The notes: generated by a model from the sequence alone, not told the origin. Positions 16,435 to 46,029 are shown, counted from the first letter of the stretch. The stretch: 46,029 nt of DNA from Candidatus Nanopelagicales bacterium (GCA_044336815.1 JBIIOU010000003.1:1-46029); one strand, 5' to 3'. Made by a program: numbers and translations.

Positions 16435-16482
16435 CATATCCCTTGATCTAATTTGTCTGCCCTAGATGAAAGTGAGCAAGCC

Positions 16483-22572: not shown

Positions 22573-22611
22573 GTAGCTATTTAGTCCCGCATTACTATCC
22601 AAGGAGCGACT

Positions 22612-22860
22612 GTGGCAATTCACGAAGTTCAATCTCCCATCCCAGGGATCTTTTACCGGCGCCCGAGTCCGGATCAACCTGAGTACTTCAACCTCGGCGA
22701 TACGGTTTCCGCTGACGACACCATTGGCTTAGTTGAGGTTATGAAGCAATTTGCGGAAATTAAAGCCGGGGCCGATGGTGTGATTACGGCCTTCCACGTG
22801 GATAGCGAGGCAATAATTGGCCCAGGGGATCTCATCGCGTCTATCGAAACCATCGCGTAA
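22612..22860 (+). CDS. Stand-alone biotin carboxyl carrier protein
   Basis: SPIPGIFYRRPSP and EVMKQ biotinylation motif. Confidence 0.92.
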   Translation: MAIHEVQSPIPGIFYRRPSPDQPEYFNLGDTVSADDTIGLVEVMKQFAEIKAGADGVITAFHVDSEAIIGPGDLIASIETIA

Positions 22861-24189: not shown

Positions 24190-24234
24190 CCCGCAGATCG
24201 GGCACCGACCTGACTGCTTTCGAGAAGGAGCAAA

Positions 24235-29313: not shown

Positions 29314-29871
29314 ATGACTTGGATTCTTATCGCGATATTGGTGCTAGTTGTCATCTTGGTGCTTGTCGGCTTCAGCCAGTTCAACAAGCTGCGCCGCCTC
29401 AATCTGCTGTGCACCGGTGCCCTTGGCGATATCGATACTTTACTCACCAAACGAGCTGACTTAATCCCGAACTTGGTATCAACCGTCCAAGGAGCCAAGG
29501 ATTTCGAATCGTCAACCCTTGAGGCCGTTACGCAAGCCCGTACCGCTGGTATGCAGGCGCAGAGCCTAGAGGCCAAAGCTGAGGCTGACGGGATGTTGAC
29601 CCAAGCACTCGGCAAGTTGTTCGCTCTTGCTGAGGCGTATCCAGCGCTGACGGCTACCGAGAACTTCCGGTTGCTTCAGGTCCAGATATCAGAGATCGAA
29701 AGTCAGCTGCAGTTCGCGCGCCAGTTCTATAACGACACCGTTGTCACGCTCAACACCGCCGTTGTCACGGTGCCGTCGATGTGGTTCACCGGTATCGCCA
29801 AGGTGACCGAGCGTTCGGTTTACGCTGAGACCGATGAAACCAAGCGAGCCGTGCCAAAGGTTGAGTTCTAG
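29314..29871 (+). CDS. lemA: LemA family protein
   Basis: N-terminal TM, then KRADLIPNLV, AEAYPAL and ARQFYND motifs. Confidence 0.93.
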   Translation: MTWILIAILVLVVILVLVGFSQFNKLRRLNLLCTGALGDIDTLLTKRADLIPNLVSTVQGAKDFESSTLEAVTQARTAGMQAQSLEAKAEADGMLTQALGKLFALAEAYPALTATENFRLLQVQISEIESQLQFARQFYNDTVVTLNTAVVTVPSMWFTGIAKVTERSVYAETDETKRAVPKVEF

Positions 29872-29874
29872 CAG

Positions 29875-31698
29875 GTGGTCTCACGCCGTTTTCGTTTCTT
29901 CACAATTTGGGCTGCTTCACTTTTCGCGCTGTCGGCTGGTTTTGCCTCAGCCGCCAGTGCTCCTCATGCCGAAGCGTCGATAAATCCGTGGGAGTCAATT
30001 ATCTCCTACGACGTCGTTGCTCAGGTGCAGCCAAATACCGACATGTTGATCACCGAAACAATTGTGTACGACCCTGGCACCGACGAGGTTCACCGCGGCA
30101 TCCTGCGCGATATCCCACTGCAAGATGTGCTATCTAATGGTGACATTCGCACCTACGGTGTTGAGATCGAATCAATTAGTCGTGACGGCGCTGAAGTTAT
30201 GTATGAGCAATCCGAGTCTGACTCCTTTATCAACCTGCGAATCGGTGATCCAAATATCCCGATCGAAGGTCTACATACTTTTGTGATCTCCTACCGGGTC
30301 ACCGATGCCTTGGATGTCATCGAGGCAAGTGACCTCACGGCAAACTCACCCGAAAATATTAGTGCTGGCGATATTGGGTTGTATTGGGATTTCATCGGCT
30401 CCCAATGGCCATTTCCGATTTATCGAGGCAGTGCGGCGATAACCGGGCCTACCCCGGCCTTGATAGCGAATTGCTACGCCGGCCCCCAGGGCTCAACGAG
30501 TCAGTGCGTGGTTCAAGAAAATGTTGGCCCGCAGGCTGCCGTAGTTATGGTGGCTGATCTCAGCGCAGGTGGCGGCTTGACCGGTGTTCTCGGTTGGGCT
30601 CCAACCGGGTTCACCGAATTGCCGACTCCAAATATCGTCGCTGACCCAAAAGTCGCGGAGATGGAGCGGGCCTCCTCTTTATTGCCACTGTTCCTACTGC
30701 TTGGTGCAGCTGCCCTAGTCGCGCCCATCGTGATTGCGGTAATGCGCCGGCGCACTAGTGCTGGCGTGGTACTCGGTGCGACCCCGGTCCGCTATCAGCC
30801 ACCGCAGGGCTTGCGGCCAGCACAAGTACAAGCTGGGATTGATGGCACGGTTGACACCCGCGGCTACTCGGCAACCCTGCTAGACCTGGCAGCGCGCGGT
30901 CACATCACCGTCAAGGAGCAGGCGGGTGGCCGGTTCCAAAGCGGTGGCATGGAGCTGAGCTGGACGGGCACCGGCAAAGATGAGATGGCCGATTGGGAGA
31001 CCGCCCTGCTCGCGGCGATCTTCAAGGGCTCTCCAACTGCAACCATCGGTGAGTACGACGAGATTCTTGCGGCGGCTACCACGTCACTTTCAAGTACATT
31101 GGCGGCTGACGCTGCCAAATCAGGTCGGTACAACCCTCTTGGTGATGTACCTGATCGGCCCTACAAGTTACTCGCCCTACTGGGCGGCCTCATGCTTGCC
31201 GCGGGGTTGGCGGCACTTGTTATCGCTGCCGCCTACACCAGTGGCTCGGGGCTAGCGGTCATCGGGTTGGGGCTTTTGCTCGGCGGTATTGCTGGCGCCA
31301 TCATCACTCCCCGCCAACAGACAAAAGTTTCTGCGGCATTTTTAGGGGAGGTCGAAGGGTTCAAGCGACTGCTTAATTCGGATTCGGCTGATGCCCGCCG
31401 CGATTTCGCCCAAAAAATAAACCTACCCCCGGCCGCCATCTTTGCAACCTTCTTGCCGTATGCGGTGGTACTTGGGCTCGAAGATACTTGGATGAAGAAC
31501 TTCCCTGACCTTCGCCCAGAAGAGTTGCAGAACTATGGGATCTATGTAGCAAGTATGTATGCGATGTACGGGTGGTCATCTAGCATGGAGTCTAACTTTA
31601 GTTCGGGCATGACCGAACGCTCAAGTGATTCGGGTTTCAGTGGTGGCGGCGGTTTCAGTGGTGGTGGCGGCGGCGGTGGCGGCGGCGGATCGTTCTAG
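29875..31698 (+). CDS. DUF2207-family membrane protein
   Basis: Signal peptide, ITETI..RGILRDIP, LYWDFIG, ATLLDLAARG, LPYAVVLG and a Gly-rich GGGGGGGSF tail. Typical LemA partner. Confidence 0.88.
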   Translation: MVSRRFRFFTIWAASLFALSAGFASAASAPHAEASINPWESIISYDVVAQVQPNTDMLITETIVYDPGTDEVHRGILRDIPLQDVLSNGDIRTYGVEIESISRDGAEVMYEQSESDSFINLRIGDPNIPIEGLHTFVISYRVTDALDVIEASDLTANSPENISAGDIGLYWDFIGSQWPFPIYRGSAAITGPTPALIANCYAGPQGSTSQCVVQENVGPQAAVVMVADLSAGGGLTGVLGWAPTGFTELPTPNIVADPKVAEMERASSLLPLFLLLGAAALVAPIVIAVMRRRTSAGVVLGATPVRYQPPQGLRPAQVQAGIDGTVDTRGYSATLLDLAARGHITVKEQAGGRFQSGGMELSWTGTGKDEMADWETALLAAIFKGSPTATIGEYDEILAAATTSLSSTLAADAAKSGRYNPLGDVPDRPYKLLALLGGLMLAAGLAALVIAAAYTSGSGLAVIGLGLLLGGIAGAIITPRQQTKVSAAFLGEVEGFKRLLNSDSADARRDFAQKINLPPAAIFATFLPYAVVLGLEDTWMKNFPDLRPEELQNYGIYVASMYAMYGWSSSMESNFSSGMTERSSDSGFSGGGGFSGGGGGGGGGGSF

Positions 31699-32264: not shown

Positions 32265-32915
32265 GTGATTATTGAGGTTTGGGCGGATGTCGTTTGCCCT
32301 TGGTGTTTTATCGGCAAGCGGCGGCTGGAACGAGCAATCGCGGTACTGCCGGAGCTACCTGAACTTGAAGTCGTTCATCGAGCATTTCAACTCGATCCCG
32401 GGGCGATTTCTGAAGGCGGGCTCACGGTCGATTTGTTGGCGAGCAAGTACGGACTGGATCCTGAGGGAGTAAGGAGCATGCTCGGGCAGGTTGACTCAGC
32501 GGGGGCAACCGAAGGCCTGACAATGCGGTTACACGAAACCCAAAGGGGCAACACTTCCTTTGCCCACCAGTTGATTTTATGGGCGCAACAGCAGGGTAGT
32601 GGACAAGAGCTCCTCGAGGGGATCTTCAGTGGCTATTTCGAAAATGCGCTCCCGATATTTACCATAGATGAACTAATGCCATTCGTGCGCGCTGCTGGTT
32701 TGGATGCCGAAGTTGCACGTGAGGTAATTGCCGCTGGCTCGTATCAAAGTGCGGTGGCGGCTGACCTCGAGATGGCGGCGCAGTTTGGTGCAACCGGGGT
32801 TCCATTCTTTGTTTTTGATCGCAGATTTGGGATTTCTGGGGCCCAGCCGTTTGAGGTATTCGTCGAGACGATAACCAAGGCGCTCGAGTCACCGCTAGAT
32901 AAGTCGAGTGTTTAG
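32265..32915 (+). CDS. DsbA-family (FrnE-like) thiol-disulfide oxidoreductase, cytoplasmic
   Basis: DVVCPWCFIGKRRL, FQLDP, GVPFFVF and SGAQP motifs. No signal peptide. Confidence 0.93.
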   Translation: MIIEVWADVVCPWCFIGKRRLERAIAVLPELPELEVVHRAFQLDPGAISEGGLTVDLLASKYGLDPEGVRSMLGQVDSAGATEGLTMRLHETQRGNTSFAHQLILWAQQQGSGQELLEGIFSGYFENALPIFTIDELMPFVRAAGLDAEVAREVIAAGSYQSAVAADLEMAAQFGATGVPFFVFDRRFGISGAQPFEVFVETITKALESPLDKSSV

Positions 32916-35844: not shown

Positions 35845-36456
35845 TTAACTTCCCTCACATGGCAAGGCACCTTGCTGATTGCCGATTGTGCCCTTATATG
35901 TCGGTTCAAATACCTTTTGGCTGGCTATTGGGGGTACGACATAAACTAATGGGTAGGGCCCTTTGCCGACACTTTCCGGGAAGCCCTCCATGGTCACTCG
36001 TCCGACGTTTACTTGGATTGTGACATCCCCAGATTTGGTACCGGCCCAGCAACCAGATGCTTTCGTTGAATCAAGTGCCTGCGCTCGCGTGGGCTGGGTC
36101 CCGGCGGGGACACCTTTATAATGAATGACGATGTTCTGCAGCGCATTTTGATTGACTGCCCAAGGCGCGGTGAAGTTAAAACTCATCCCCTTGGTTTTGG
36201 CCGTTGGCACAGTTGCGGTCGCAACACCGTTGACTACCGTGACGGTCTTCCCCTCGTAGGGCGCACCCGATTTACCTTTTAGCCACTGCGCGGGCTGGAT
36301 GGTGCAACCGTCGCAGCCGACGACATTGAAAGTAATAGTTGTCGTGTTGGCGGCCATGGCGGCAGGGGCCAATAAAGTCGTGGCGGCAAAAGCTGTAGAG
36401 GCTAGAGCCAGGGTTAGCAGTGGGGTGGCGGTCATGGCCGCGATTCGGGTGCGCAT
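35845..36456 (-). CDS. Secreted hypothetical protein with CDGC and two more Cys
   Basis: Signal peptide (AMA site), a beta-rich body, VVGCDGCTI, SGCWAGT and a terminal LPCEGS. Confidence 0.75.
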   Translation of the reverse strand: MRTRIAAMTATPLLTLALASTAFAATTLLAPAAMAANTTTITFNVVGCDGCTIQPAQWLKGKSGAPYEGKTVTVVNGVATATVPTAKTKGMSFNFTAPWAVNQNALQNIVIHYKGVPAGTQPTRAQALDSTKASGCWAGTKSGDVTIQVNVGRVTMEGFPESVGKGPYPLVYVVPPIASQKVFEPTYKGTIGNQQGALPCEGS

Positions 36457-36571: not shown

Positions 36572-38236
36572 TTACCTTGAGGTCATCTCGACGCCTTGAT
36601 CCTCTTCAGCCGGTTTTTTGGGACCGGTCAACTTCGACCACCATGAAGAGAGTTTGTCCTTGATCCTGCTGCCGAATCCCTTGGCTGAATCCTTAGCATC
36701 AACGGCGGTCTTGCGTGCGTTAAGTGCGGTGGTCTTCACGTCATCGACAGCATGTGAAGCTTCGGTCTTAGCTTGGTGCTTACCTGAGCTCCACAATCCT
36801 TTAAGCCAGCCGGTGATGCCGCCTTCTTTGTAGCTTTCACCGGCAACCGGGGCGGGGTCTGCTGTTTTAGCCCCGGACTTTTCCCAACCAACGCCGCCTT
36901 CACCGGTTGCTTGACCCCGTGACCTAAAACCACGATGCAAAATGCTGCCGGCTTGGGTCTGGGCGGTACCAGCGGCGCGTTCTTCCGCACTACCGCCATC
37001 AAGGTGCTTGTCGTGGGCGTCAGCCTGATCTTGTTTATTGCCACCCAGCCATTGGAAGGGTTTTGAAAGCAGTGTTCCCGCGGCTCTGGCTGCATACCCG
37101 GTGCCTTTAACCGCGGATGACGCCGTGATGCCACCCAATCCTGGAGCCACAATATGGCCGGCGGTTGCTAGGCCAGCTGTCGCTGCTTGGGTGCCGAGGC
37201 CTAAGGCGGAGACCGCTGCTGCAGTTTTCAAATTACCCTTAAGCAGGTCTTCTTCACCATCTGCGCCCGTGATTGTTTCGCCAGTTTTTTTGAGAGCTTG
37301 ACCTGGCAATGCGGCAATCTGCATGGCTTTCGTCATGCCGCTAGTTTCTGGGCGCGCCTCATTAAGCTTCTCAGACTCTTCCATTGTGCCTTCGTATGTT
37401 GCTCGATGCCCTCCATCTTGAACTGCATCGCCAAGCCTCTTTGCGGCCAGCGCCTTCACAGCCGCGGACTTAAACATGCCGGTCTTGTTTTTGCGGGCAA
37501 CCATTCGTTGCATATCTGCAGCTACGTAATCCTTGCGCGCCTCACCCGCTACGTCGGTTGGTTTTTCGCCGGAGGCTTCCTTGGCCATCCAAGCACCGGC
37601 TTGAATGCCAACGCCTAAGTGTTTGGCAACCTGGCCTGGATCAACACCCAACATGGCCTCCGAAAGGCTGGGCATGACCCCACCGCCGAGCGCTTTAGAT
37701 GCAGAGTTCACCCCGCCGATTCCGGTTGCCGAGCCGCTGACGATATTTGCGACTGTCCCGGTGATGTTGCCGGCGGTGTGGCCGCTCACTTTGTTGAAGG
37801 CATTGTCACCGCGCAGGCCGGCGCCGAAACCAGAAAGGGCATCGGTGATGCCGGATTTTTTAGGCTGTTCTTTTTCGGCTGACTGAGTTGCTGGCCCCGA
37901 GATACTGCTCGGGGGAGCTACTTTCGCGGCTTCCGGAGCAGCTGTCGCTTCAGGTTCTGGGGCCGGTTGCGCGGGAGATGCGCCGAACATCAGCGGGTCT
38001 GGATTGAGCAGCGGGTCGATATCGGTGGATTGGGACGTTATGCGTTTAGCAACCGAGGGGCGACTGGTTGCAACTTGTGGTGCTGGCGATGCAACGGCGG
38101 CGGGCTCGGTAAGTGGGCGCGAGGTACTGACTGCTGCAGCTTGGGTGGGCGCCCTCGCGGCTTCGTCCCGGGCAGCCAACCGACGGCGGTCGGCTTCTTG
38201 TTCAGCTTTCGGGTGGAGGATATGAATCATGCTCAT
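36572..38236 (-). CDS. Hypothetical Ala/Gly-rich protein, candidate CIS cargo/effector
   Basis: 554-aa ORF with AAGGAG RBS, a disordered N-terminus with EQEADR and hydrophobic Gly/Ala helices. No signal peptide. Adjacent to CIS genes. Confidence 0.7.
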   Translation of the reverse strand: MSMIHILHPKAEQEADRRRLAARDEAARAPTQAAAVSTSRPLTEPAAVASPAPQVATSRPSVAKRITSQSTDIDPLLNPDPLMFGASPAQPAPEPEATAAPEAAKVAPPSSISGPATQSAEKEQPKKSGITDALSGFGAGLRGDNAFNKVSGHTAGNITGTVANIVSGSATGIGGVNSASKALGGGVMPSLSEAMLGVDPGQVAKHLGVGIQAGAWMAKEASGEKPTDVAGEARKDYVAADMQRMVARKNKTGMFKSAAVKALAAKRLGDAVQDGGHRATYEGTMEESEKLNEARPETSGMTKAMQIAALPGQALKKTGETITGADGEEDLLKGNLKTAAAVSALGLGTQAATAGLATAGHIVAPGLGGITASSAVKGTGYAARAAGTLLSKPFQWLGGNKQDQADAHDKHLDGGSAEERAAGTAQTQAGSILHRGFRSRGQATGEGGVGWEKSGAKTADPAPVAGESYKEGGITGWLKGLWSSGKHQAKTEASHAVDDVKTTALNARKTAVDAKDSAKGFGSRIKDKLSSWWSKLTGPKKPAEEDQGVEMTSR

Positions 38237-38251
38237 GGCAGTTACTCCTTG

Positions 38252-39121
38252 CTACGACTGATCTTCTGCTTTACTCATGCGGCGGTTGAGGATTATTCCA
38301 AAAAGAAGTGAGAGCAGGCCTAGGGCGAGAAGAACGGTAATAAACCCTGGGATTGAGATGATCGTGGTCTCGGTGCCATTTCGGGTAACCGAGAAAGTAA
38401 ATTGCACACTTTGGGCACCGGTGCTCGCCGGGTTTGCCGGGCACATGGAGACCCCGCAGTTAACAAGAACCTGCCAGATCGTCAAGCACACGTAGCTGAA
38501 GAGCCAGCCAATAACGGTGAAGGTTGCGACGCGGGCCGGGCCGCCGTGGTGCAGTAAGCCTTCGTCGTCTGTTTGGTAGGAGGAGGTCCAAAGCAAAATA
38601 AATGCGCAAGCGAGAATCCCGGCAATGCAGAGGCCCAGGGCCCAGTAGTAAAGCGGAATCCCCATGACAATGTCATTTGGGTCAAGTACCAGAGTGCCTT
38701 CAGCGCTTCTTATCGCTTGCATGCCGGAGGCGGCTGATCCAACTAGTGCCGCAATGATCGTGATTGCGTAGTGCTTGGGTGAAAGGCCCATTAGTAAATT
38801 CATGATGGGGCCAATTGCCATGCCGACTAGAGCTGATCGTTCAACGATACAAAGTGCACAGGGCGGTTGCCCGTAACCGAATTGCTGCACCAATGAGCCG
38901 GTAACCACCGCGATGATTATCAGCACGGCGATGATGTTCAGCCACCTTGCCGCTCCCACGGCCGGGGTCGGTTCTGATCCTTGGCTTGAGTCGGCAGAAC
39001 TTGAAGACCCTGAGGCTCCGCCGGGTACTTTTGGCATCGAACTTGGCATTTTCGGCGTAGAACTTGGCTTCTTGGGAAGAGCAGACTTCTCCTTGCTCAT
39101 CATCCCTTGGAGGCCGCTCAC
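38252..39121 (-). CDS. dsbB: Disulfide bond formation protein DsbB family
   Basis: QFGYGQPPCALCIVER motif after TM1, GIPLYYWA, several TMs and a second Cys pair CGVSMC. Confidence 0.8.
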   Translation of the reverse strand: MSGLQGMMSKEKSALPKKPSSTPKMPSSMPKVPGGASGSSSSADSSQGSEPTPAVGAARWLNIIAVLIIIAVVTGSLVQQFGYGQPPCALCIVERSALVGMAIGPIMNLLMGLSPKHYAITIIAALVGSAASGMQAIRSAEGTLVLDPNDIVMGIPLYYWALGLCIAGILACAFILLWTSSYQTDDEGLLHHGGPARVATFTVIGWLFSYVCLTIWQVLVNCGVSMCPANPASTGAQSVQFTFSVTRNGTETTIISIPGFITVLLALGLLSLLFGIILNRRMSKAEDQS

Positions 39122-39379
39122 CGGGTGCCCTCAATCTCAATCATGATGCCCTAGTTCCAGAGGACAAATAGTGTCGAAACCCCGAGGGTGGCCAAAGACG
39201 CCGGGGCGACCCAGCGCGACCTGAAGGCGGCGGCAACTATTACCCCGGCCCACAGAATGAACATGATTACCACGAGAATATGATAGCGAAGGGTAGAGGG
39301 GCCCGTGATCCACTATCTAGCAATATTGGCGAAGAACCCCGGTAAGTGCAGTTGGGGAAGGGGAAGGGCATGAAATACC

Positions 39380-40069
39380 GTGCTATCTGACCTCGATGCT
39401 GCCCTAAAGAACTACCTTCAAAATGAGACTATTTCGGGCCAAAGCGTCCAAGTAGCACTGGACCCCCCGACCAAGGATTGGGCAGCCCGTCGCACCGGGG
39501 CGGTGCTGAACCTCTTTTTGGCCGATATCCGTGAAGACGTGGATCGCCGCGATGTCAATTTGCGTGAGATCACCAATGACCAAGGGGTGATCGTCGCCCG
39601 CCAACAGGCTAACCGCTTCTACCTAGTCACTTACCTGTTGACCGCCTGGACTTCAACCCCAGAGGATGACCATCGGTTACTCGGTTTGGCCCTGGTGGCG
39701 ATGCTGCGCCAGGATTATTTGCCATTTGAATATGTCACCGGTGACCTATCAGTATTGGTTGGCGCCGGTTTTCCGCTCACCACCCGGGTGGGTCTGCGGG
39801 CGATGAATGAGCGCACTTATTCAGAGATGATGACCGCCGTGGGCGCTGAGTATCGGCCACCTCTTTCTATCATCATTTCTATGCCGGTACCGACAGGTAC
39901 GCCCGAAGCGGCTGGGCCCCCACAAACAGTTCCCCCGGTTGTCAGTATCGGAGATACCCGATCTGGTGCCTCGACGACCGTGCAAGGTCCAGATCCAGAA
40001 GATCCCGGTGCCGGCTATCGAACTCGAACTCGACCCACAAGTGATGTCAGTGCTCCGGTAAAGCCGTAA
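39380..40069 (+). CDS. Pvc16/Afp16 (DUF4255) CIS cap/terminator protein
   Basis: MLSDLDAALK, LDPPTKDWAARR, LNLFLADIRED and YLLTAWT..PEDDHRLLG motifs. Confidence 0.88.
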   Translation: MLSDLDAALKNYLQNETISGQSVQVALDPPTKDWAARRTGAVLNLFLADIREDVDRRDVNLREITNDQGVIVARQQANRFYLVTYLLTAWTSTPEDDHRLLGLALVAMLRQDYLPFEYVTGDLSVLVGAGFPLTTRVGLRAMNERTYSEMMTAVGAEYRPPLSIIISMPVPTGTPEAAGPPQTVPPVVSIGDTRSGASTTVQGPDPEDPGAGYRTRTRPTSDVSAPVKP

Positions 40070-42061
40070 GTGGTTGCCGTGAAAGCTGAGCTAAACTCGG
40101 AGCAGGAGAATTCTTACGCGATGCGTCGCGTACTTGACTTTCTAGCTGAACGCATCGCAATGATCATCGAATTTGAGCGAGCTGCTGATGATGTCGCAGA
40201 TCACCAGCGGGGTCACTATTTCCCCCCCCACCTAATAACTCGTGATGCTCGCAAAGGTGCGCCACAAAGTTTTAAGGACGTCATACCATTTGGAGACTTA
40301 CCGGAGAGGTTGATTCATTTAGCTAAGAGTGCTGATCTGCTTGATATTGATTTGGGCATTCTTTTGACGGCAATGTCGGTAAATTTGCAGCAGCGCTTTG
40401 AACATTTCTTCATAGTCCTCAACAATGAAGTTGACACTCGAGGGCCGAACGTCTCAACAGCAATTCGCCTTGCTGGGTATGACCCAGACAGTGCCGATGC
40501 GCGAAGTCGACTGCGCCCTGATCGGCCGCTTCTAGCTCTCGGACTCATTGAGATCACGAACTCCAAAAGGTCCTTACTAACCCAAGTGTTAACCGTGCCC
40601 GAACGCGTGGTTGCGCATTTGCTTGGTGATGATGAGTTTGCGCCAGGCACAAGTTCTATCGCTTCGTTCATGGGTTCACCGCTGCTACCCGAGGAGTTAC
40701 TTCCAAAGCTTCCGGATGATTTGGAGCTACCTGTTATTTTTCGAGCTGGGTCAGGTACAGCTGGGCGTGAACAGGCTTACGCCCTTGCATATCGAACGAC
40801 AGGCAAGTCCCCGTTGCTTATTGACGGGTTAGGTTTAAGTCGAATTGAGGACGTATGTTCGCTGCAGATCCGCGAGTGTGTTCGCGAGGCGGCACTTGCT
40901 GGCAGTCCGATAGTTCTAGATATTCGGCACGCTGACACCGGGATGTCGGTTAGCGAAATCGCGCGGCTATTTGGAACTCTCTCGGTCGCCTTCATCATCC
41001 TTATTGAAGCTAAAGCGCATGTCGAGCTCTGGCATGGTTCGACCGTAGATCTGCCGCTGCCGACCGCGGGCGTGCGGCGCAGTTGGTGGGAACACCTAGG
41101 TGATGGAACCGAGCGAACCGCCGCCGCCGATGCCGCAATTCACGTTGACCCCCAGGAGTTGCACGCGCACCTAACCAATGGGGGCCCGCTGGCTCCAAGA
41201 GCCATCGAAAGCGGCACCTTGACCCAGGCGGTCGACCCGGAGTTCACCCTGGAGGATCTGGTGGCGTCGGCCCGGGTGACCGACGCCCTCCGTGAACTTC
41301 GGGATCGGGTCAGGCATCGCACCGTGGTTCTTGATGAGTGGCGAATGCGGCCCGGTGGTGGCCGCGGCCGCGGGGTAACCGCCTTGTTCTCGGGCCCATC
41401 GGGCACCGGGAAAACCATGGCGGCTGAAGCCTTGGCTGGTGAGCTTGGGGTACCGCTATTTCGGGTCAACTTGGCCAGCGTGGTCGATAAATACATAGGG
41501 GAGACCGAAAAAAAGCTGGATCGGGTCTTTACCTCGGTCGAAGATGTCGATGGGGTACTCCTTTTTGATGAGGCGGACGCCCTATTTAGCAAGCGTTCGG
41601 GGGTCTCTGATGCCCGAGACCGGTACGCCAACCTAGAAGTGGCCTATCTCTTGCAGCGAATGGAGTCCTTTGACGGGCTGGCGGTCTTGACCACGAACCT
41701 CCGGGCCAACCTCGATGAGGCCCTAATCCGGCGCCTGGACGCTGCTATTGATTTCCCGGAGCCCCAGGCCGAAGAAAGATATCTCCTGTGGCTGGCGTGT
41801 CTTAAGGGGAACATGGGGCGGGTGGGGCAGAATCACGTTCAACGGTTATCAGTGCTTCCCCTGACCGGCGGGTCTATTCGGGCGGCATCGGTGTCCGCCG
41901 CTTACTTGGCTGCCGCTCAAGGGGAACTTCTAGGCCCCGCACATCTCCTCCGCGGCGTGCAGCAGGAGTGGAGCAAGCAAGGTCGGCTTTCCTTCCCCAC
42001 GACCGAGTTTGAAGAGAGCTTCACGGAGGCTGCACATGACGAACCTGATAAACGAATTTGA
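40070..42061 (+). CDS. Pvc15/Afp15-type CIS AAA+ ATPase
   Basis: N-terminal LNNEVDTRGP and VPERVVAHLLG, a degenerate first AAA module, then ALFSGPSGTGKT, VVDKYIGETEK, LLFDEADALF and DRYANLEVAYLLQRME. Confidence 0.92.
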   Translation: MVAVKAELNSEQENSYAMRRVLDFLAERIAMIIEFERAADDVADHQRGHYFPPHLITRDARKGAPQSFKDVIPFGDLPERLIHLAKSADLLDIDLGILLTAMSVNLQQRFEHFFIVLNNEVDTRGPNVSTAIRLAGYDPDSADARSRLRPDRPLLALGLIEITNSKRSLLTQVLTVPERVVAHLLGDDEFAPGTSSIASFMGSPLLPEELLPKLPDDLELPVIFRAGSGTAGREQAYALAYRTTGKSPLLIDGLGLSRIEDVCSLQIRECVREAALAGSPIVLDIRHADTGMSVSEIARLFGTLSVAFIILIEAKAHVELWHGSTVDLPLPTAGVRRSWWEHLGDGTERTAAADAAIHVDPQELHAHLTNGGPLAPRAIESGTLTQAVDPEFTLEDLVASARVTDALRELRDRVRHRTVVLDEWRMRPGGGRGRGVTALFSGPSGTGKTMAAEALAGELGVPLFRVNLASVVDKYIGETEKKLDRVFTSVEDVDGVLLFDEADALFSKRSGVSDARDRYANLEVAYLLQRMESFDGLAVLTTNLRANLDEALIRRLDAAIDFPEPQAEERYLLWLACLKGNMGRVGQNHVQRLSVLPLTGGSIRAASVSAAYLAAAQGELLGPAHLLRGVQQEWSKQGRLSFPTTEFEESFTEAAHDEPDKRI

Positions 42062-44339
42062 TGCCCTTGGGCAAAACAAATATGTGACTCAGGGCAAGAC
42101 CGCTGCAACGAACATGCGCCATAAGGGCGGAAGCGCCAGCGATGACCAAATCGGCGACGATGTAGAAGATGTTCAGTTTGATACCACGATGGATCCGCAG
42201 ATCGATCCTGATCGCGTTGATCCTGCATTTGACCCTTCCAGTGCTTCGCTCGCTACCCGCCCACTCATCTGGATGTCCGACGCTTTAACTGACGTAGTCC
42301 CCGGGCAATCTGTCCGAATAAAAGTTAGCGTTCGAAATGTCGGAACTATTGTTGAGACTTACGATCTAAGTGTCTTGGGTCCGGCCCGCACATGGGTGTC
42401 GGTGGCACCATCTGAGATCTCGCTTTTCCCAGGTGACGAGGGCTCAGCTGTTGTCACCATTAAGCCACCGCGAAGCCCAAATATGCTCGCCGGCAGGTAT
42501 GAGGTGGCCATCAAAGCGACTTCACAGGTCTTGTGGGCCGAAAGGGCCGTTGCTGAATTCAGCGTCACTGTTGCGCCGTACCATCAATTCAAGGCAGTCA
42601 TTGCGCGCAGCACCTTGGAACTTAAAACGAAGACATCGACATACCTTCAAATTGTCAATGAAGGAAATTCATCAACCAAGTTTTCTGTTGACGTAACAGA
42701 CCCGGATGGCGTCTTTGAGGGCACATTAGATGCCCCTACGTATGTACTAGATCCCGGGCAACCAGCCTGGCTAAAAGTGGAAGTCACTGGCCCCGTTCAC
42801 ATTATTGGCAAGCAAGTACATGGGGCCGTATTCGCTCACGTCAACCAAGTTCTTGACCTGGTCACCAATACACCGGTGATCGGGTCAAAGCCATTTGTGC
42901 AGCGCGTGGCGGTGACGCAAAAACCAGTCATTCGTTTCAGACTTGGCTGGTTCGGACGGATACTCATAATCTTCCTCCTCCTCGCTTTGGTCGCTGCATT
43001 CGTCCTCTCTCGGTTTTTCAGCACAGCGCCCCAGTCAAGCGCGGGGGCGCCTTCTTACCCAACTAACTTCTCCGCAGTAATGAGCGGAAACACCAATGTC
43101 GTTCTCACCTGGGACCCAGTAACTGGAGCCACGGGCTACCACATCTATGCGGTGGGTGAGGCCGGGAGTTCTGCCTCTCCTTCTGCGGCTGCGACAACCG
43201 CACCGGCCCCTGCGACAACCGCACCGGCCCCTGCGACAACCGCACCGGTCCCTGCGACAACCGCACCGGCCCCTGTGACAACCGCACCGGCCCCTGTGAC
43301 AACCGCACCGGTGAACTATGTGCAACCTGCCGCTGCCACCAACCGGACGAAAGCTGTGATTTTGTCAAGTACGTACGCATTGGACTCATCGGTTTTCGTG
43401 TTTGAGCCACAAACCAAGAACGGGAAGACTTCTAAGAATAACGCGAAGCAGCGAAGTCAAAAGTTCCAAGAAATTGCAGCGCGACTACCTATGGTGGTAC
43501 CGCAAGGTGGATCGGTATCGTCCTCGTCACCGAGTGCGTCGAGTGCATCGAGTGCATCGGGCTCCTCTAGCGGGGCGTCAGGTTCGCCAACACCGTCGTC
43601 GACCGTTTCCGCCTTGAGCTCGGCTTCCGCCGCGTCATTGGATTTGTCTAACCCAACTTCAGCCTGCCAAAACTGCACATCGGTGAATTCGTTGCCGTCG
43701 GGATCGACTCGGTATGAAGTTTCTGGAGCTAAGGCTGGCATCTTGGCCTGCTACCGCATTGTGGCTCTCAACGGAAGTTACAGTTCCCTTTACAGTGGCG
43801 CCGCTTGCGTGCAGGTGCCAACTGTCGAGCAGGCCGCAGCCGCTGACAACGCCGCCGCCGCGGCCGCGGCATCCAGCGCCGCTTCAGCCTCACCGTCGCC
43901 AACAGCTATTCCGGCGTGTGCGCCGGTGAAATTCAAGGTGACCGCGATGAGTTCAAGTGCAATAGGGATTGTGTGGCAGGCTCCAACGAAGTTACCAAAA
44001 GGCGCGGTAGATGATTACTGCGATTTAACGATTCCAATTACCGGGTGGGATATTCAGCACCAAATTCTTACCGGGTGGTCATCGGTTTCGCCAGCACCGC
44101 AATTAAACGACACCGCTTTGCAACTCAGCGGATTATCCCCGGATACAGAATATTGCTTCAGAATGAACAGTGTTACGGCTACTGGCCCCTCCTTGTTTAG
44201 CAAGGAAGTGTGCGCCACAACAGATGAGGAAGTCGTGGCATCACCTTCCGCGTCACCATCGAGCAGTGCATCCGCAAGTGCGTCAGCGAGTGCGACGGCA
44301 ACAACCGGAGATACCGCTGTGCCCGCCCCAACCAGCTAA
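42036..44339 (+). CDS. CIS-associated bitopic membrane protein: cytoplasmic Ig-like repeats, TM, extracellular fibronectin type III domains
   Basis: VRNVGTIVETY..V.G..WV.V.P..ISLFPG...PPRSP..AG pattern, recalled from Streptomyces CIS 'hydrolytic proteins'. TM ILIIFLLLALVAAFVL. FN3 motifs LTWDP/GYHIY and LSPDTEYCFR. GGAGG before the ATG at 42036. Confidence 0.8.
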   Translation: MTNLINEFDALGQNKYVTQGKTAATNMRHKGGSASDDQIGDDVEDVQFDTTMDPQIDPDRVDPAFDPSSASLATRPLIWMSDALTDVVPGQSVRIKVSVRNVGTIVETYDLSVLGPARTWVSVAPSEISLFPGDEGSAVVTIKPPRSPNMLAGRYEVAIKATSQVLWAERAVAEFSVTVAPYHQFKAVIARSTLELKTKTSTYLQIVNEGNSSTKFSVDVTDPDGVFEGTLDAPTYVLDPGQPAWLKVEVTGPVHIIGKQVHGAVFAHVNQVLDLVTNTPVIGSKPFVQRVAVTQKPVIRFRLGWFGRILIIFLLLALVAAFVLSRFFSTAPQSSAGAPSYPTNFSAVMSGNTNVVLTWDPVTGATGYHIYAVGEAGSSASPSAAATTAPAPATTAPAPATTAPVPATTAPAPVTTAPAPVTTAPVNYVQPAAATNRTKAVILSSTYALDSSVFVFEPQTKNGKTSKNNAKQRSQKFQEIAARLPMVVPQGGSVSSSSPSASSASSASGSSSGASGSPTPSSTVSALSSASAASLDLSNPTSACQNCTSVNSLPSGSTRYEVSGAKAGILACYRIVALNGSYSSLYSGAACVQVPTVEQAAAADNAAAAAAASSAASASPSPTAIPACAPVKFKVTAMSSSAIGIVWQAPTKLPKGAVDDYCDLTIPITGWDIQHQILTGWSSVSPAPQLNDTALQLSGLSPDTEYCFRMNSVTATGPSLFSKEVCATTDEEVVASPSASPSSSASASASASATATTGDTAVPAPTS
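43191..43311 (+). repeat. 21-bp coding tandem repeat (ATTAPAP x ~5.8)
   Basis: GCGACAACCGCACCGGCCCCT units with only single-base variants. Confidence 0.95.
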
Positions 44340-44362
44340 CGTCGCCAAGTAGTTTGAGCGGA

Positions 44363-46029
44363 TCAAGACTGTGAAGTTTTAGAAGGTGTTGGGCTTGCTG
44401 TTGAAGGTGCCGGCGTTGGGTTAGGCGAACCGGTCGTTGTTGGTGATGTAGAAGAACTGGCTGATGGGGTTGGCGACGGGCTAGGAATGGTGCCCGGTGC
44501 CGCACATGGGATAGCCGAGGCGCTCGGAGTAGCGGATGCAGACCCGGACGGGGAGCTAGTACCAGCAGGTGCCGATGTTCCCGATGCCGCCGAACTTGGT
44601 GCTGATGAGGCGGCTGAACTTGGTGCGGCTGACGCGCTGCTGCTTTCGCCCCCAGGTCTAAACGGATTGAGTACCTCTACTGTGCTGACACTTGGACTCT
44701 GCAGGAAGTTCAGTGAGCTGATGGCGACCGCGCCAAAATTTGGATCAGGGGTAATCACGTAGCGCGACGGATACACCGAGTCAATTGAGACCGTCACGCT
44801 GGTTGCGTAAGTGGTCGGGAAACTCATTATTTGTGTGTAGAGAGCATTGCTGGTCGGTGCTTCGAGTAACACAGTGTCGATCGTTCCGCTAGGGGAAAAT
44901 GTCATGCTTATATTTTTCGGCTGGGCAAGGGCTTGGACGTCGATGTCACTGTCTTGGGTGCCGGGTGCGACGATAATTCTATCGATGGGGTAGCACTGCG
45001 TGAAGGTAAATGTAATTGTGGTACCAACTCCGAGGCCGTTCATCTCCGCACTAGCCCAGTAATCGACGGAGTTGGCTTGGTTAAGGCTGGTTGGAGTGGT
45101 TCCCGGCAATGATGAACTGGCGGTAATACTCGCAACCGACGTTTCTTCACCAAGTTTCGGAAAGATGAACTCGGAAATAGTTTGACCAGTTTCCTTAAAA
45201 AAAGCCCTTGTTGTAGCTGCCATTGGGCCCCAGAAGAAAAACCAAATGAGGAACACTATGAGCCCAAGAATTACGTAAAGCAGGTAGCTTTTTCGCCAAG
45301 CCTTCTGAACTGGCGATGAAGTTGACCCACCCGGCCTACCGGCCCCGGTGGACTCTTTTATTACTGGCGGCACCGGTGCCAGGCGATAGGTAGATAGGTA
45401 GCTTCCGCACCATTCGCAGTAGGCATGGTCGATTGGATTGTGGTGGCCGCAGTGAGCGCATTCTACCGCGGGGCCATGGGTTTCTCCCTCAGCAAGAATT
45501 GAGCGCCGAGTGCGTTGTTGTCTCTCCTCTTCCTCTTGTGGGAGCTCTGCAACAACGTCAACGGTGGGATGAGCGGGGATAACATTGACAGTCGCCACCT
45601 CAGTATTGATAAGACCGGCGGCAGGGGAGAGGTCATCTTCACCGGTGGCCGCAGCTGGGTCGGTGCCTGAAGTTGTCGCGTTCGGGTCAGCCGTTTTTGG
45701 CGCTTTGGGGCGCCGCCAAAAGGCCCACCAAGGTATGGGCTTGCTATCAACCGAATCAGAGTCATCGTCACCAGAGTCATCGTCACCAGAGTCGCCGTCA
45801 TGATGACCAAGGTGCAAGCCGTGGAAGCGATGATGGGGCTCGTCCGTTGGCAGAGGTACCGTTTCGACAGGCTCCTCGGGTGTTTGCGTCACCGCGGGTT
45901 CGACAACCACGACGGGTTCGGTTGGCTCGGGTGCAGGCGGCTTTGGCTCGGGCACCGTGGAGGTTACCTCTGTGGGGCTCCAAGATGGGACGCCCATGAA
46001 CTCTAGGTAGGCACCACATGTTGGGCAGT
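44363..46029 (-). CDS. CisA-like CIS membrane anchor (zinc ribbons, TM, discoidin/NADase-type glycan-binding domain), 5'-truncated by the window edge
   Basis: The frame stays open past the annotated Met to the window end (CPTCGAYLEF-MGVP). CAHCG..CEWCG ribbon, TM YLLYVILGLIVFLIWFFFW, then ASSSLPG, YWAS and VAISSLNF. Confidence 0.8.
   Translation of the reverse strand, partial: CPTCGAYLEFMGVPSWSPTEVTSTVPEPKPPAPEPTEPVVVVEPAVTQTPEEPVETVPLPTDEPHHRFHGLHLGHHDGDSGDDDSGDDDSDSVDSKPIPWWAFWRRPKAPKTADPNATTSGTDPAAATGEDDLSPAAGLINTEVATVNVIPAHPTVDVVAELPQEEEERQQRTRRSILAEGETHGPAVECAHCGHHNPIDHAYCEWCGSYLSTYRLAPVPPVIKESTGAGRPGGSTSSPVQKAWRKSYLLYVILGLIVFLIWFFFWGPMAATTRAFFKETGQTISEFIFPKLGEETSVASITASSSLPGTTPTSLNQANSVDYWASAEMNGLGVGTTITFTFTQCYPIDRIIVAPGTQDSDIDVQALAQPKNISMTFSPSGTIDTVLLEAPTSNALYTQIMSFPTTYATSVTVSIDSVYPSRYVITPDPNFGAVAISSLNFLQSPSVSTVEVLNPFRPGGESSSASAAPSSAASSAPSSAASGTSAPAGTSSPSGSASATPSASAIPCAAPGTIPSPSPTPSASSSTSPTTTGSPNPTPAPSTASPTPSKTSQS
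45757..45800 (-). repeat. 15-bp coding tandem repeat (GDDDS x ~3)
   Basis: CAGAGTCATCGTCAC units on the + strand. Confidence 0.8.

What the first reader, a model, noticed from the sequence alone, without database searches (positions are those of the whole stretch)
39380..46029. Edge of a Streptomyces-type membrane-anchored contractile injection system in a lower-GC actinobacterium
Seen: a Pvc16-AAA ATPase-Ig/TM/FN3 operon converging on a zinc-ribbon/TM/discoidin protein. Established: this gene set matches the accessory and anchor components of the cytoplasmic CIS of Streptomyces, where CisA recruits the particle to the membrane. Inference: sheath, tube, spike and baseplate genes should lie just right of the window on the minus strand. 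The DNA is visibly far less GC-rich than Streptomyces, so the host is probably a non-mycelial lineage, where the role of such a CIS is unknown.
Basis: partly seen in the sequence, partly recalled or inferred. Interest (0 to 1): 0.75.

Follow-up and report, generated by a model that had tools for sequence, protein, structure and literature searches.

The report
Edge of a Streptomyces-type injection system
The right end of this window holds four genes of a phage-tail-like contractile injection system of the kind known from Streptomyces, here in an uncultured aquatic actinobacterium, so it is a new member of a known system.

Summary
Window 39380-46029 encodes a Pvc16/Cis16 cap protein, a Cis15 AAA+ ATPase and a single-pass Ig/TM/FN3 protein on the + strand. 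They converge on a zinc-ribbon/TM/discoidin protein whose 5' end runs off the window.

All four have Streptomyces type IId CIS counterparts:
- Cis16 hits only the S. coelicolor cap structure 9GTS in the PDB (E 4e-36).
- The ATPase is 54% identical to S. clavuligerus Cis15 over 261 residues.
- The Ig/TM/FN3 protein shares its N-terminal domains with the gene beside S. clavuligerus cis15, which fits the published Sco4256-family architecture (hhalign 99.0%).
- The zinc-ribbon protein is a remote CisA-family member (hhalign 99.7%).

In 30 related loci from aquatic MAGs, its gene directly follows a Cis1b-Cis7 fusion, VgrG, gp25, Cis11 and Cis12. A tube gene and sheath gene ends were seen further upstream.

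So the predicted structural genes are there in relatives, though not shown for this genome. The sheath was never seen whole.

Type IId loci and CisA homologues are already listed for the genus Cellulomonas, non-mycelial from my recall. This makes it a new member of a known kind. The lifestyle claim is untested.

The parts
39122..39379 (.). Intergenic region between the divergent DsbB-like gene and cis16; presumed promoter region of the cis16-cis15-Ig/TM/FN3 arm
   Evidence: Inferred from the ORF layout. The consensus scan found no sigma-70-like site here.
39380..40069 (+). cis16: Pvc16/Afp16-type cap (tail terminator) protein, 229 aa
   Evidence: Pfam Pvc16_N at E 8.7e-27, 94.4 bits against a cut-off of 27. 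The only PDB match at E<=1 is 9gts_0A, the S. coelicolor CIS cap, at E 3.9e-36 over residues 1-195. It is 87-91% identical in L005, L007 and L009, and 46-49% in the more distant aquatic loci.
40070..42061 (+). cis15: AAA+ ATPase with an N-terminal winged-helix domain, 663 aa
   Evidence: Pfam AAA at 2.7e-26 and WHD at 2.1e-13. BLASTP to S. clavuligerus Cis15 (L031:620-2743) gives 54% identity over 261 aa at E 1e-65, plus 35% over the N-terminal 171 aa. Walker A (GPSGTGKT) and Walker B (LLFDEAD) can be read in the translation. NCBIfam and PADLOC hits (IteA, IetA, PAN) fall far below cut-offs and reflect the shared AAA fold only.
42009..44339 (+). Sco4256-family-like single-pass membrane protein, 776 aa: N-terminal Ig-like domains (about 95-300), TM (315-333), then Pro/Thr- and Ser-rich linkers and at least one FN3 domain (638-733)
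   Evidence: Pfam fn3 at residues 638-733 (35 bits, cut-off 25). Residues 343-400 just after the TM hit only two PHROG major-tail-protein families weakly. Ig-like hits at 98-156 are below cut-off. NCBIfam choice_anch_T matches residues 95-264 below cut-off. There is one TM with 3 K/R upstream and 1 downstream. Residues 96-231 are 31% identical (E 1e-16) to the N-terminus of the 559-aa gene beside S. clavuligerus cis15. The family profile A6 against that protein gives hhalign 99.0%, E 6e-18, over 220 columns ending at its TM. The gene was found convergent to the zinc-ribbon gene in 22 of the 22 loci that extend past that gene. The true start codon is uncertain, because the listed TTG start overlaps cis15 by 53 nt.
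44363..46029 (-). cisA-like gene, 5' end cut by the window edge (about 77 codons missing): zinc ribbon 1 (only its last CxxC seen), acidic/Pro-rich linker, zinc ribbon 2, TM, NADase-type discoidin domain, Ser/Pro-rich tail
   Evidence: The frame is open to the window end. The closest full-length relative, P0001, is 98% identical and 631 aa long. Zinc ribbon 1 is nearly invariant in alignment A1. Pfam DZR matches residues 190-212, and NCBIfam NADase_discoid scores 43.1 bits against a cut-off of 38 at residues 303-421. The TM lies at 249-267. hhalign of A1 against the S. clavuligerus 584-aa protein gives 95.3%, and against 5 Streptomycetaceae proteins 99.7%, E 5.4e-27, over 259 columns. In relatives the gene follows the Tail_P2_I (Cis12) gene directly.

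Best explanation
Window 39380-46029 is one end of a type IId ('Streptomyces-type') contractile injection system cluster in an uncultured actinobacterium of about 55% GC. Its nearest relatives are aquatic metagenome-assembled genomes.

**Shown:**
- The + strand arm encodes the cap protein Cis16, the AAA+ ATPase Cis15 and a membrane protein. Its N-terminal Ig-like domains and single TM match the gene beside cis15 in S. clavuligerus. Its architecture matches the published description of Sco4256-4258.
- The - strand gene that runs off the window is a remote member of the CisA family: zinc ribbons on the N-terminal side of a single TM, and a glycan-binding-type domain on the other side.
- In related genomes this gene is the last of an operon: tube, small conserved protein, DUF4157 protein, Cis1b-Cis7 fusion, VgrG, gp25, Cis11, Cis12.

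**Inferred from relatives:** the same genes, and a sheath gene, lie within about 12-15 kb to the right of the window on the minus strand.

**Inferred by analogy with S. coelicolor, not tested here:**
- The particle assembles free in the cytoplasm with help from Cis15 and is capped by a Cis16 hexamer.
- The CisA-like protein sits in the cytoplasmic membrane with its zinc-ribbon region inside.
- On some envelope signal it brings the baseplate (probably Cis11) to the membrane, which licenses sheath contraction.
- The Sco4256-like protein is the cargo or effector, and firing damages the producer's own envelope and leads to cell death.
For: **Identity of the four genes**
- Families were assigned.
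- Cis16 matches 9GTS only.
- Cis15 is 54% identical to the S. clavuligerus protein over 261 residues.
- The Ig/TM/FN3 family against the S. clavuligerus neighbour of cis15 gives E 1e-16 by BLASTP and 99.0% by hhalign. Both have a TM right after the shared region. This fits the published description of Sco4256-4258: a shared N-terminus, one TM and a variable C-terminal domain.
- CisA family: hhalign gives 95.3% against one S. clavuligerus protein and 99.7% against a 5-sequence profile.
- That S. clavuligerus protein follows cis12. It carries two zinc ribbons. It has the species and length, 584 aa, of a reciprocal CisA hit in the CisA paper's source data.
- A profile built only from the aquatic family finds, at library-wide E of about 1e-16 to 1e-30, representatives that are 30-65% identical to the Streptomycetaceae proteins.
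- Vladimirov et al. describe Sco4242 as a Cys-rich putative Zn-binding region, then a TM, then a carbohydrate-related C-terminal domain.

**Context**
- tblastn finds Cis12 upstream of the zinc-ribbon gene in 30 of 30 related loci and Cis11 in 29 of 30. The miss is a 2.3-kb contig.
- Pfam confirms eCIS_core, tube, VgrG, gp25, Baseplate_J and Tail_P2_I in the loci scanned.
- L004 is the nearest relative: 99% on a 176-aa Cis15 fragment, 93% on the FN3 protein and 85% on the zinc-ribbon protein.
- The tube gene was seen in L008, L014 and L016, and its C-terminal half in L009. C-terminal ends of a sheath gene were seen in L008 (33 aa, 67% identical to the S. clavuligerus sheath, E 2e-8) and L016 (20 aa, E 3e-4).

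**Subtype**
- L004 Cis11 matches S. coelicolor Cis11 (9gtp_1K) at E 2e-174, with the next PDB hit at 6e-7.
- In a Cis11 tree of 35 rows, the 26 aquatic sequences form one clade (SH-aLRT 100). They group with 5 Streptomycetaceae against Deinococcus, two cyanobacteria and Rhodococcus (SH-aLRT 97).
- The clusters have a single Cis11 and a single-ORF VgrG. No fibre or tape-measure gene appears in the stretches seen. This fits subtype IId as defined by Chen et al..
Against: - No structural CIS gene lies in the window itself, and its own contig could not be extended.
- No whole sheath gene was seen in any relative. The 10-kb flank limit stops at or near the tube gene.
- The CisA link is remote, at 17-21% identity in the hhalign alignments. 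SCO4242 itself was not compared, because its sequence was not in any collection I could reach.
- The C-terminal domain is called discoidin or NADase-type glycan-binding here. The CisA paper likens the CisA C-terminal domain to solute-binding proteins.
- Cytoplasmic location, membrane recruitment, firing and cell death are known only for Streptomyces. Even there, CisA-Cis11 binding is a model prediction that the authors could not confirm.
- Gene order differs from Streptomyces. The cis16-cis15 arm is downstream and convergent here, and it is absent from that place in 4 of the 15 loci with enough sequence.
- All relatives are MAGs with inconsistent taxonomic labels.
Confidence: 0.75

Rival explanations
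1. It is a classical extracellular CIS. Particles are released by lysis and act on other cells. The zinc-ribbon/TM/discoidin protein is a fibre-like receptor-binding protein whose glycan-binding domain recognises a target surface, as Vladimirov et al. first proposed for Sco4242.
For: The gene sits where eCIS and phages encode fibres, right after the wedge genes. Its C-terminal domain is of a glycan-binding type. Sco4242 was detected in purified particles in S. coelicolor.
Against: A strongly hydrophobic single TM, with the glycan-binding domain on the far side of it, does not fit a soluble fibre. In S. coelicolor, CisA was shown to be a membrane protein and was absent from the solved particle. 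Particles there are cytoplasmic. No fibre-like or tape-measure gene was seen in the related clusters. None of this was tested in the present lineage.
Confidence: 0.12
2. The four genes are orphan remnants. The genome that gave the window has lost the structural genes, and the remaining genes are decaying or have been put to another use.
For: No structural gene is in the window. The window ends inside the zinc-ribbon gene, so nothing to its right is known.
Against: All four frames are intact and long. They are 85-99% identical to those of L004, where the baseplate operon is complete up to the contig end. The zinc-ribbon gene follows cis12 in every related locus that reaches that far. ATPase motifs and zinc-ligand cysteines are kept.
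Confidence: 0.05
3. The particle is real and cytoplasmic, but the two membrane proteins do not work as in Streptomyces. For example, the pair could form an envelope-spanning dock through which the tube fires outward into neighbouring cells or into grazers, more like a membrane-anchored T6SS or the thylakoid-anchored cyanobacterial CIS.
For: Both proteins are single-pass, with folded domains on both sides of the membrane. They are encoded as a conserved convergent pair in 22 of the 22 loci that extend far enough, even where cis15 and cis16 are elsewhere. Vladimirov et al. raise outward firing from a membrane-bound particle as a possibility.
Against: No experiment or model supports a complex of the two. 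The Streptomyces homologues of the Ig/TM protein are needed to fill the tube, and they are toxic when expressed in E. coli, which points to cargo rather than dock. The complex predictor was not available.
Confidence: 0.08

Closest known systems
CIS-Sc, the cytoplasmic type IId contractile injection system of Streptomyces coelicolor (SCO4242-4260; PDB 9GTP/9GTR/9GTS)
   Same: Cis16 matches the CIS-Sc cap alone among solved structures. The relative L004 has a full-length Cis11 match at E 2e-174 and Cis7 and Cis1b matches. The Cis11 tree places the aquatic clade with Streptomycetaceae. The core order is the same as in the S. clavuligerus cluster: sheath, tube, small protein, large protein, Cis1b, Cis7, VgrG, gp25, Cis11, Cis12, CisA. 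No fibre or tape-measure gene was seen.
   Different: Cis1b and Cis7 are fused into one protein of about 480 aa. The cis16-cis15-effector arm lies downstream of cisA and converges on it, instead of lying upstream of the sheath gene. No PAAR gene was seen between VgrG and gp25. GC is 0.55 against 0.75. The hosts are uncultured aquatic lineages. Function is untested.
CisA (SCO4242), the membrane protein required for CIS-Sc firing
   Same: The gene position is the same, right after cis12. Both have a single TM with a zinc-ribbon-type Cys-rich region before it and a conserved domain of about 150-190 aa after it. Profile-profile homology runs across zinc ribbon 2, the TM and the C-terminal domain (99.7%). 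A further zinc ribbon at the N-terminus is shared with the Streptomycetaceae proteins.
   Different: Only 17-21% of the aligned columns are identical. The C-terminal domain scores as an NADase-type discoidin domain here. A long Ser/Pro-rich tail follows it. In one aquatic subclade, two more hydrophobic segments lie between the zinc ribbons. SCO4242 itself was not compared.
Sco4256-4258, CIS-Sc-associated effectors (Casu et al. 2023) / putative toxin (Vladimirov et al. 2023)
   Same: Both have a conserved N-terminal Ig-like region, one TM and a variable C-terminal domain, and both are encoded next to cis15.
   Different: The C-terminal part here holds an FN3 domain and low-complexity linkers. 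The Streptomyces proteins carry ricin-type, toxin-like or peptidoglycan-binding domains instead. There is an extra N-terminal stretch of about 90 aa. The comparison used an S. clavuligerus homologue, not Sco4256 itself.
Classical extracellular CIS (Afp of Serratia, PVC of Photorhabdus, AlgoCIS)
   Same: They share the core parts: cap, ATPase, tube, sheath, spike, gp25 and baseplate J.
   Different: Matches of L004 Cis11 to Afp11 and Alg11 are weak (E 6e-5 and 6e-7). The Afp, PVC and AlgoCIS cap proteins were not hit at E<=1. The related clusters show no Afp13 fibre and no Afp14 tape measure.

Membership tests
Type IId eCIS/CIS (dbeCIS subtype; Chen et al. 2019) | The Afp11/Cis11 sequence groups with known IId loci | tested here: met
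   Tested in relatives, not in the window. L004 Cis11 matches S. coelicolor Cis11 (9gtp_1K) at E 2e-174, with the next PDB hit at 6e-7. The best plasmid-borne matches are Streptomycetaceae at 41-45%, against 33% or less for the others. The tree groups the 26 aquatic and 5 Streptomycetaceae sequences at SH-aLRT 97.
Type IId eCIS/CIS (dbeCIS subtype; Chen et al. 2019) | A single Afp11 copy and a single contiguous Afp8 (VgrG) ORF; no Afp13 fibre and no Afp14 tape measure | tested here: met
   Tested in relatives. There is one Baseplate_J gene and one 600-627-aa GPD plus Phage_base_V gene per locus in most loci. In L021 the gene is split or shorter. No fibre or tape-measure family turned up in the stretches scanned. 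The definition was taken from passages read. The region upstream of the tube gene was not seen.
Type IId eCIS/CIS (dbeCIS subtype; Chen et al. 2019) | A contractile sheath gene in the cluster | tested here: inconclusive
   Only the last 33 and 20 residues of a sheath gene were seen, at the 5' edges of L008 and L016 (E 2e-8 and 3e-4 against the S. clavuligerus sheath). No whole gene was seen, and none in the window's closest relatives.
Cis16 / Pvc16 cap protein | Pvc16_N domain above the Pfam gathering score | tested here: met
   94.4 bits against a cut-off of 27. 9gts at E 3.9e-36.
Cis15 / Afp15 AAA+ ATPase | An AAA domain with Walker A and B motifs, an N-terminal winged-helix region, and a position next to cis16 | tested here: met
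   Pfam AAA and WHD. The motifs can be read in the translation. It is 54% identical to the S. clavuligerus protein encoded after DUF4255.
CisA (SCO4242) family | Encoded immediately downstream of the baseplate genes cis11 and cis12 | tested here: met
   Cis12 lies directly upstream in 30 of 30 related loci. In the window itself the upstream gene lies beyond the edge.
CisA (SCO4242) family | A bitopic membrane protein: cytoplasmic N-terminal region with a Cys-rich zinc-binding stretch before one TM | tested here: met
   One hydrophobic segment at 249-267 with K/R upstream. Pfam DZR at 190-212. The four cysteines are invariant in A1. Topology is predicted, not measured.
CisA (SCO4242) family | The conserved C-terminal extracytoplasmic domain is homologous to that of CisA | tested here: met
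   hhalign gives 99.7%, E 5.4e-27, against 5 Streptomycetaceae cis12-adjacent proteins. One of them has the species and length of a reciprocal CisA hit, 584 aa, E 2e-61. SCO4242 itself was not compared.
CisA (SCO4242) family | Required for sheath contraction and CIS-mediated cell death | not testable with these tools
   This needs genetics and tomography. The complex predictor was not available.
Sco4256-4258 effector family | A shared N-terminal Ig-like (pilus-chaperone-like) region followed by one TM and a variable C-terminal domain | tested here: met
   BLASTP E 1e-16 and hhalign 99.0% to the S. clavuligerus gene beside cis15. The TM positions agree. The definition comes from passages read. 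Sco4256 itself was not compared.
Sco4256-4258 effector family | Loaded into the particle and toxic on expression | not testable with these tools
   This needs an experiment.

The most novel reading that the evidence does not exclude
A self-directed, CisA-gated contractile injection system is a standing feature of a whole clade of free-living planktonic, probably unicellular, aquatic actinobacteria. It was seen in 30 MAG loci from lakes, reservoirs, estuaries and oceans. There it cannot serve hyphal development. It would instead act as a stress- or phage-triggered suicide device of single cells, with the outward-facing discoidin domain of the CisA-like protein reading damage to the cell wall.
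Probability: 0.15. Interest if true: 0.7.

Novelty: new member of a known kind. Interest (0 to 1): 0.4.

Why it matters
The Streptomyces CIS is the only studied system of this subtype. Its role has been tied to hyphal cell death and the timing of sporulation.

A sister clade of the same machine, complete with CisA-like and Sco4256-like partners, occurs in uncultured aquatic actinobacteria. This shows that the CisA-type membrane adaptor is older and more widespread than the mycelial lineages where it was found.

It also gives natural variants that could help map which parts of CisA matter:
- a fused Cis1b-Cis7;
- a nearly invariant N-terminal zinc ribbon;
- different outer domains.

It raises the question of what a self-directed injection system does in planktonic cells. 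The gain is modest. Catalogues already list type IId loci and CisA homologues in the genus Cellulomonas, which I recall as non-mycelial. Nothing here bears on function.

Tried and rejected
- **Structure prediction.** No fold or Foldseek comparison was made. The domain assignment rests on NCBIfam and on weak PDB profile hits: 7ji1_A at E 0.0088 and CBM32-type hyaluronidase modules at E 0.025.
- **Extending the window.** Its 10-kb flanks stop at or near the tube gene.
- **Defence system?** PADLOC and NCBIfam give only far-below-cut-off AAA matches (IetA, IteA). Rejected.
- **Prophage tail?** PHROGs gave no hit for Cis16 or the zinc-ribbon protein, and only weak matches of the post-TM segment (343-400) of the Ig/TM/FN3 protein to major tail proteins. 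The related loci show no capsid or tape-measure genes. Rejected.
- **RNA families, promoters and terminators.** Rfam found nothing. Promoter- and terminator-like sites were no more frequent than in shuffles.
- **The 554-aa protein at 36572-38236 as a tape-measure-like effector.** It has no Pfam, NCBIfam, PADLOC or PHROG family and no Atlas neighbour. It is conserved only in L007. Left open.
- **DsbB-like gene as part of the cluster.** It keeps its place only in the close relatives L005, L007 and L009. The gene at that place in L008 is unrelated. Rejected.
- **Literature.** Three searches found no paper: 'contractile injection' with 'Nanopelagicales'; 'contractile injection' with 'freshwater', 'Actinobacteria' and 'lake'; and 'phage tail-like' with 'Planktophila'. 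The main text of a 2025 metagenome survey of CIS does not contain 'Actinobacteri' or 'Actinomycet'. Its supplements were not read.
Full report
**1. What is in the window**

Four long ORFs fill 39380-46029.

- **ORF 1 (39380-40069, +, 229 aa).** It carries a Pvc16_N domain at 94.4 bits against a gathering score of 27.
- **ORF 2 (40070-42061, +, 663 aa).** It starts on the base after the stop of ORF 1. It has a winged-helix domain and an AAA domain. Walker A and Walker B motifs are readable in the translation.
- **ORF 3 (42009-44339, +, 776 aa).** As listed, it overlaps ORF 2 by 53 nt. It has sub-threshold Ig-like matches at residues 98-156 and one very hydrophobic segment at 315-333. An FN3 domain lies at 638-733 (35 bits, cut-off 25). 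Pro/Thr- and Ser-rich linkers lie between.
- **ORF 4 (44363 to the window end, -).** It stays open at the edge. The 554 residues seen hold, in order:
  - the last CxxC of a first zinc ribbon;
  - an acidic/Pro-rich linker;
  - a second zinc ribbon (Pfam DZR at 190-212);
  - one TM at 249-267;
  - a domain that NCBIfam calls the NADase-type glycan-binding (discoidin) domain, above its cut-off (43.1 bits against 38);
  - a Ser/Pro-rich tail.

The nearest full-length relative is 98% identical and 631 aa long, so about 77 codons lie beyond the window.

GC is 0.50-0.57 throughout.

The rest of the window is metabolism and transport. Of the 34 other large ORFs scanned, none gave a CIS-related family.

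**2. What lies to the right**

The window cannot be extended directly.

*The loci found*
- The scan gave 30 loci, all from metagenome-assembled genomes.
- 26 are labelled Actinomycetota. Of these, 7 are labelled Candidatus Nanopelagicales, 2 Micrococcales and 6 Bifidobacteriales/Bifidobacteriaceae. The last label is implausible for lake and sea samples.
- 2 are labelled Rhodothermota and 2 are unlabelled.
- The isolate names point to lakes, reservoirs, an estuary, an inland sea and oceans. I did not look into the samples.

*The nearest relative*

The best locus, L004, is 99% identical to the window on the 176 residues of Cis15 that it retains. It is 93% identical on ORF 3 and 85% on ORF 4. Oriented with the ORF 4 homologue on the + strand, L004 reads:

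| Gene in L004 | Size | Family evidence |
|---|---|---|
| small protein | 127 aa | no Pfam family |
| large protein | 973 aa | eCIS_core (DUF4157) domain |
| tube-type fusion | 482 aa | gp19 plus CIS_tube |
| VgrG | 627 aa | Phage_GPD plus Phage_base_V |
| gp25 | 137 aa | GPW_gp25 |
| baseplate J | 644 aa | Baseplate_J |
| small protein | 200 aa | none here; homologues score as Tail_P2_I |
| zinc-ribbon gene | 638 aa | zinc-ribbon families |
| convergent FN3 gene | 779 aa | fn3 |
| start of the ATPase | fragment | AAA |

*How general the layout is*
- tblastn finds Cis12 in 30 of 30 loci and Cis11 in 29 of 30. The miss is a 2.3-kb contig.
- The FN3 gene is convergent in 22 of the 22 loci that continue past the zinc-ribbon gene.
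- Cis15 follows the FN3 gene in 11 loci, and Cis16 follows it in 10 of them. L004 ends inside cis15.
- Neither gene is found in the 7.7-8 kb that follow the FN3 gene in 4 loci (L025, L027, L028, L030).
- This point cannot be judged in 7 loci.

*Tube and sheath*
- Further upstream a 147-aa gp19 tube gene appears in L008 and L016. Most of it appears in L014, and its C-terminal half in L009.
- The first 99 and 60 bases of L008 and L016 encode the last 33 and 20 residues of a sheath protein. These match the S. clavuligerus sheath at 67% and 75% identity (E 2e-8 and 3e-4).
It holds only by these fragments for the sheath. It is not shown for the genome of the window.

**3. Which kind of CIS**

- In the PDB, ORF 1 matches one sequence only, chain 9gts_0A (E 3.9e-36). 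The CisA paper lists 9GTS as the S. coelicolor CIS cap.
- L004 Cis11 matches S. coelicolor Cis11 (9gtp_1K) end to end at E 2e-174. The next hit, AlgoCIS, is at 6e-7.
- The 482-aa protein matches Cis7 (9gtp_P, 3e-24) with its C-terminal half. Its N-terminal half matches the small tube protein 9gtp_a, which I take to be Cis1b (4.6e-4). It is therefore a fusion of two proteins that are separate in Streptomyces.
- Among plasmids, the best Cis11 matches are Streptomycetaceae (41-45%). Deinococcus and cyanobacteria follow at 31-33%.
- A quick maximum-likelihood tree of 35 Cis11 sequences puts the 26 aquatic ones in one clade (SH-aLRT 100). That clade groups with the 5 Streptomycetaceae sequences against Deinococcus, two cyanobacteria and Rhodococcus (SH-aLRT 97). 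Monophyly of the Streptomycetaceae themselves is weak (53), and long branches were flagged.
- The related clusters have a single Cis11 and a single-ORF VgrG. No fibre or tape-measure gene was seen. This fits subtype IId as described by Chen et al. (passages).

**4. The two membrane proteins**

*Reference cluster.* The S. clavuligerus plasmid cluster reads: DUF4255, ATPase, a convergent 559-aa 'hydrolase', a regulator, sheath, tube, small proteins, Cis1b, LysM/Cis7, VgrG, gp25, baseplate J, a 'phage tail protein', then a 584-aa hypothetical protein.

*ORF 4 and CisA*
- The 584-aa protein has zinc-ribbon matches at residues 6-29 and 356-378 and one TM at 407-425.
- The aquatic family profile aligns with it at 95.3% probability. 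The alignment covers zinc ribbon 2, the TM and the C-terminal domain.
- In three more Streptomycetaceae plasmid clusters the gene right after the Cis12 gene is a zinc-ribbon or hypothetical protein. In a fourth the zinc-ribbon gene lies about 1.5 kb further down.
- A profile of the five (A3) aligns with the aquatic profile at 99.7%, E 5.4e-27, over 259 columns.
- A library-wide profile search with the aquatic family alone finds 40 representatives at E<=1e-30, 355 at <=1e-10 and 2546 at <=1e-3. Among the listed hits are proteins 30-65% identical to the Streptomycetaceae proteins.
- The source data of the CisA paper (supplementary file 1, parts 1, 4 and 5 read) list reciprocal best hits of CisA. 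They include a 584-aa S. clavuligerus protein at E 2e-61 and SCO4242 itself at 468 aa.
- Vladimirov et al. (passages) describe Sco4242 as having a Cys-rich, probably zinc-binding stretch just before a TM, and a carbohydrate-related C-terminal domain of about 150 residues.
- ORF 4 is therefore a remote member of the CisA family, in the CisA position and with the CisA layout. I did not compare it with SCO4242 itself.

*ORF 3 and Sco4256-4258*
- Residues 96-231 of ORF 3 are 31% identical (E 1e-16) to the N-terminus of the S. clavuligerus 559-aa protein.
- The family profile A6 aligns at 99.0% over 220 columns that end at that protein's TM.
- The S. clavuligerus C-terminal part carries a peptidoglycan-binding domain instead of FN3.
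- This is the published picture of Sco4256-4258: a shared N-terminus resembling pilus chaperones, one TM, a variable C-terminal domain, and a position beside cis15. Deleting them leaves empty particles, and they are toxic in E. coli (passages).
- ORF 3 is thus better read as the cargo or effector family than as an anchor.

**5. How it probably works**

*Shown here:* gene identities, family links, predicted single-pass layouts and conserved context.

*Taken from the Streptomyces work* (passages):
- Particles are cytoplasmic.
- A Cis16 hexamer caps them.
[quoted passage not shown] It is not part of the purified particle, yet it is required for contraction and for stress-induced cell death.
- Its contact with Cis11 is a model prediction that the authors could not confirm.

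*Carried over by analogy only:* the CisA-like protein recruits the baseplate to the membrane on an envelope signal, and firing then delivers the Sco4256-like protein and kills the producer.

The N-terminal zinc ribbon with its following motif is nearly invariant across the aquatic family. I would test it first as the baseplate-binding piece. That is my inference.

**6. Novelty**

- Three literature searches for CIS in these aquatic lineages found nothing. The main text of a 2025 metagenome survey does not mention actinobacteria.
- However, the list of 120 type IId genomes in the CisA paper already includes Cellulomonas fimi, C. flavigena, Sanguibacter keddieii, Microlunatus phosphovorus, Ilumatobacter coccineus and Deinococcus deserti.
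- The two Cellulomonas species have reciprocal CisA hits.
- That these genera are not mycelial is my recall, not a tool result.
- Vladimirov's remark that the genera are filamentous concerns Sco4256 homologues.
- So a type IId CIS with CisA outside the mycelial actinomycetes is catalogued, though unstudied.
- What is new here is a distinct, well-supported aquatic clade with its own gene order, a Cis1b-Cis7 fusion and different outer domains.
- Cell shape and lifestyle of the host were not tested.

**7. Limits**

- No structure or complex prediction could be run.
- The tree used the quick method without a mixture model.
- All relatives are MAGs, and some labels are doubtful.

Noticed in passing
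window 38252-39121 (-): A 289-aa multi-pass membrane protein with a DsbB-like N-terminal half (Pfam DsbB at 35.4 bits, cut-off 22.1). It is transcribed divergently from cis16. It keeps this place in L005, L007 and L009 (79-95% identical), but the gene at that place in L008 is unrelated. A DsbA-like gene lies at 32265-32915.
   Followed up: partly
window 36572-38236 (-): A 554-aa Gly/Ala/Lys-rich protein with no TM. It has no match in Pfam, NCBIfam, PADLOC or PHROGs and no Atlas neighbour. It is found again only in L007 (87%), at the same place beside the DsbB-like gene. Whether it belongs to the CIS cluster, for example as cargo, is open.
   Followed up: partly
window 35845-36456 (-): A 203-aa protein with a signal-peptide-like N-terminus and no family match.
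   Followed up: no
L004:3466-4914 and homologues in the related loci: Cis1b (gp19-type tube) and Cis7 (CIS_tube/LysM-type initiator) are fused into one protein of about 460-540 aa in the aquatic clade. They are separate genes in the Streptomycetaceae clusters.
   Followed up: partly
L004:10-393, L009:255-638, L008:598 onward; L031:9493-9984: The small protein encoded after the tube gene is the best conserved gene of the cluster. It is 77-82% identical between distant aquatic subclades and 61% identical to S. clavuligerus, and it has no Pfam family.
   Followed up: no
L025:7380-8852, L016:9932-11635: In one aquatic subclade the CisA-like protein has two extra hydrophobic segments between the two zinc ribbons. 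This would keep both ribbons on the same side of the membrane. In four loci of the same subclade, cis15 and cis16 are absent from the stretch after the FN3 gene.
   Followed up: partly
L003, L011, L014, L017, L019, L022, L028, L029 (record titles): Some MAG records that carry this actinobacterial cluster are labelled Bifidobacterium breve, Bifidobacteriaceae, Rubrivirga or Rubricoccaceae. These labels look like labelling or binning errors rather than true hosts.
   Followed up: no
window 21832-26074 and 16453-17241: There are two LamB/YcsF genes. One is followed by a biotin carboxylase and by carboxyltransferase subdomain C/D and A/B genes. I recall this as a 5-oxoprolinase/allophanate-hydrolase-type set. 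Five luciferase-like monooxygenase genes are scattered through the window.
   Followed up: no
window 29314-31698 (+): A LemA and DUF2207 membrane protein pair.
   Followed up: no
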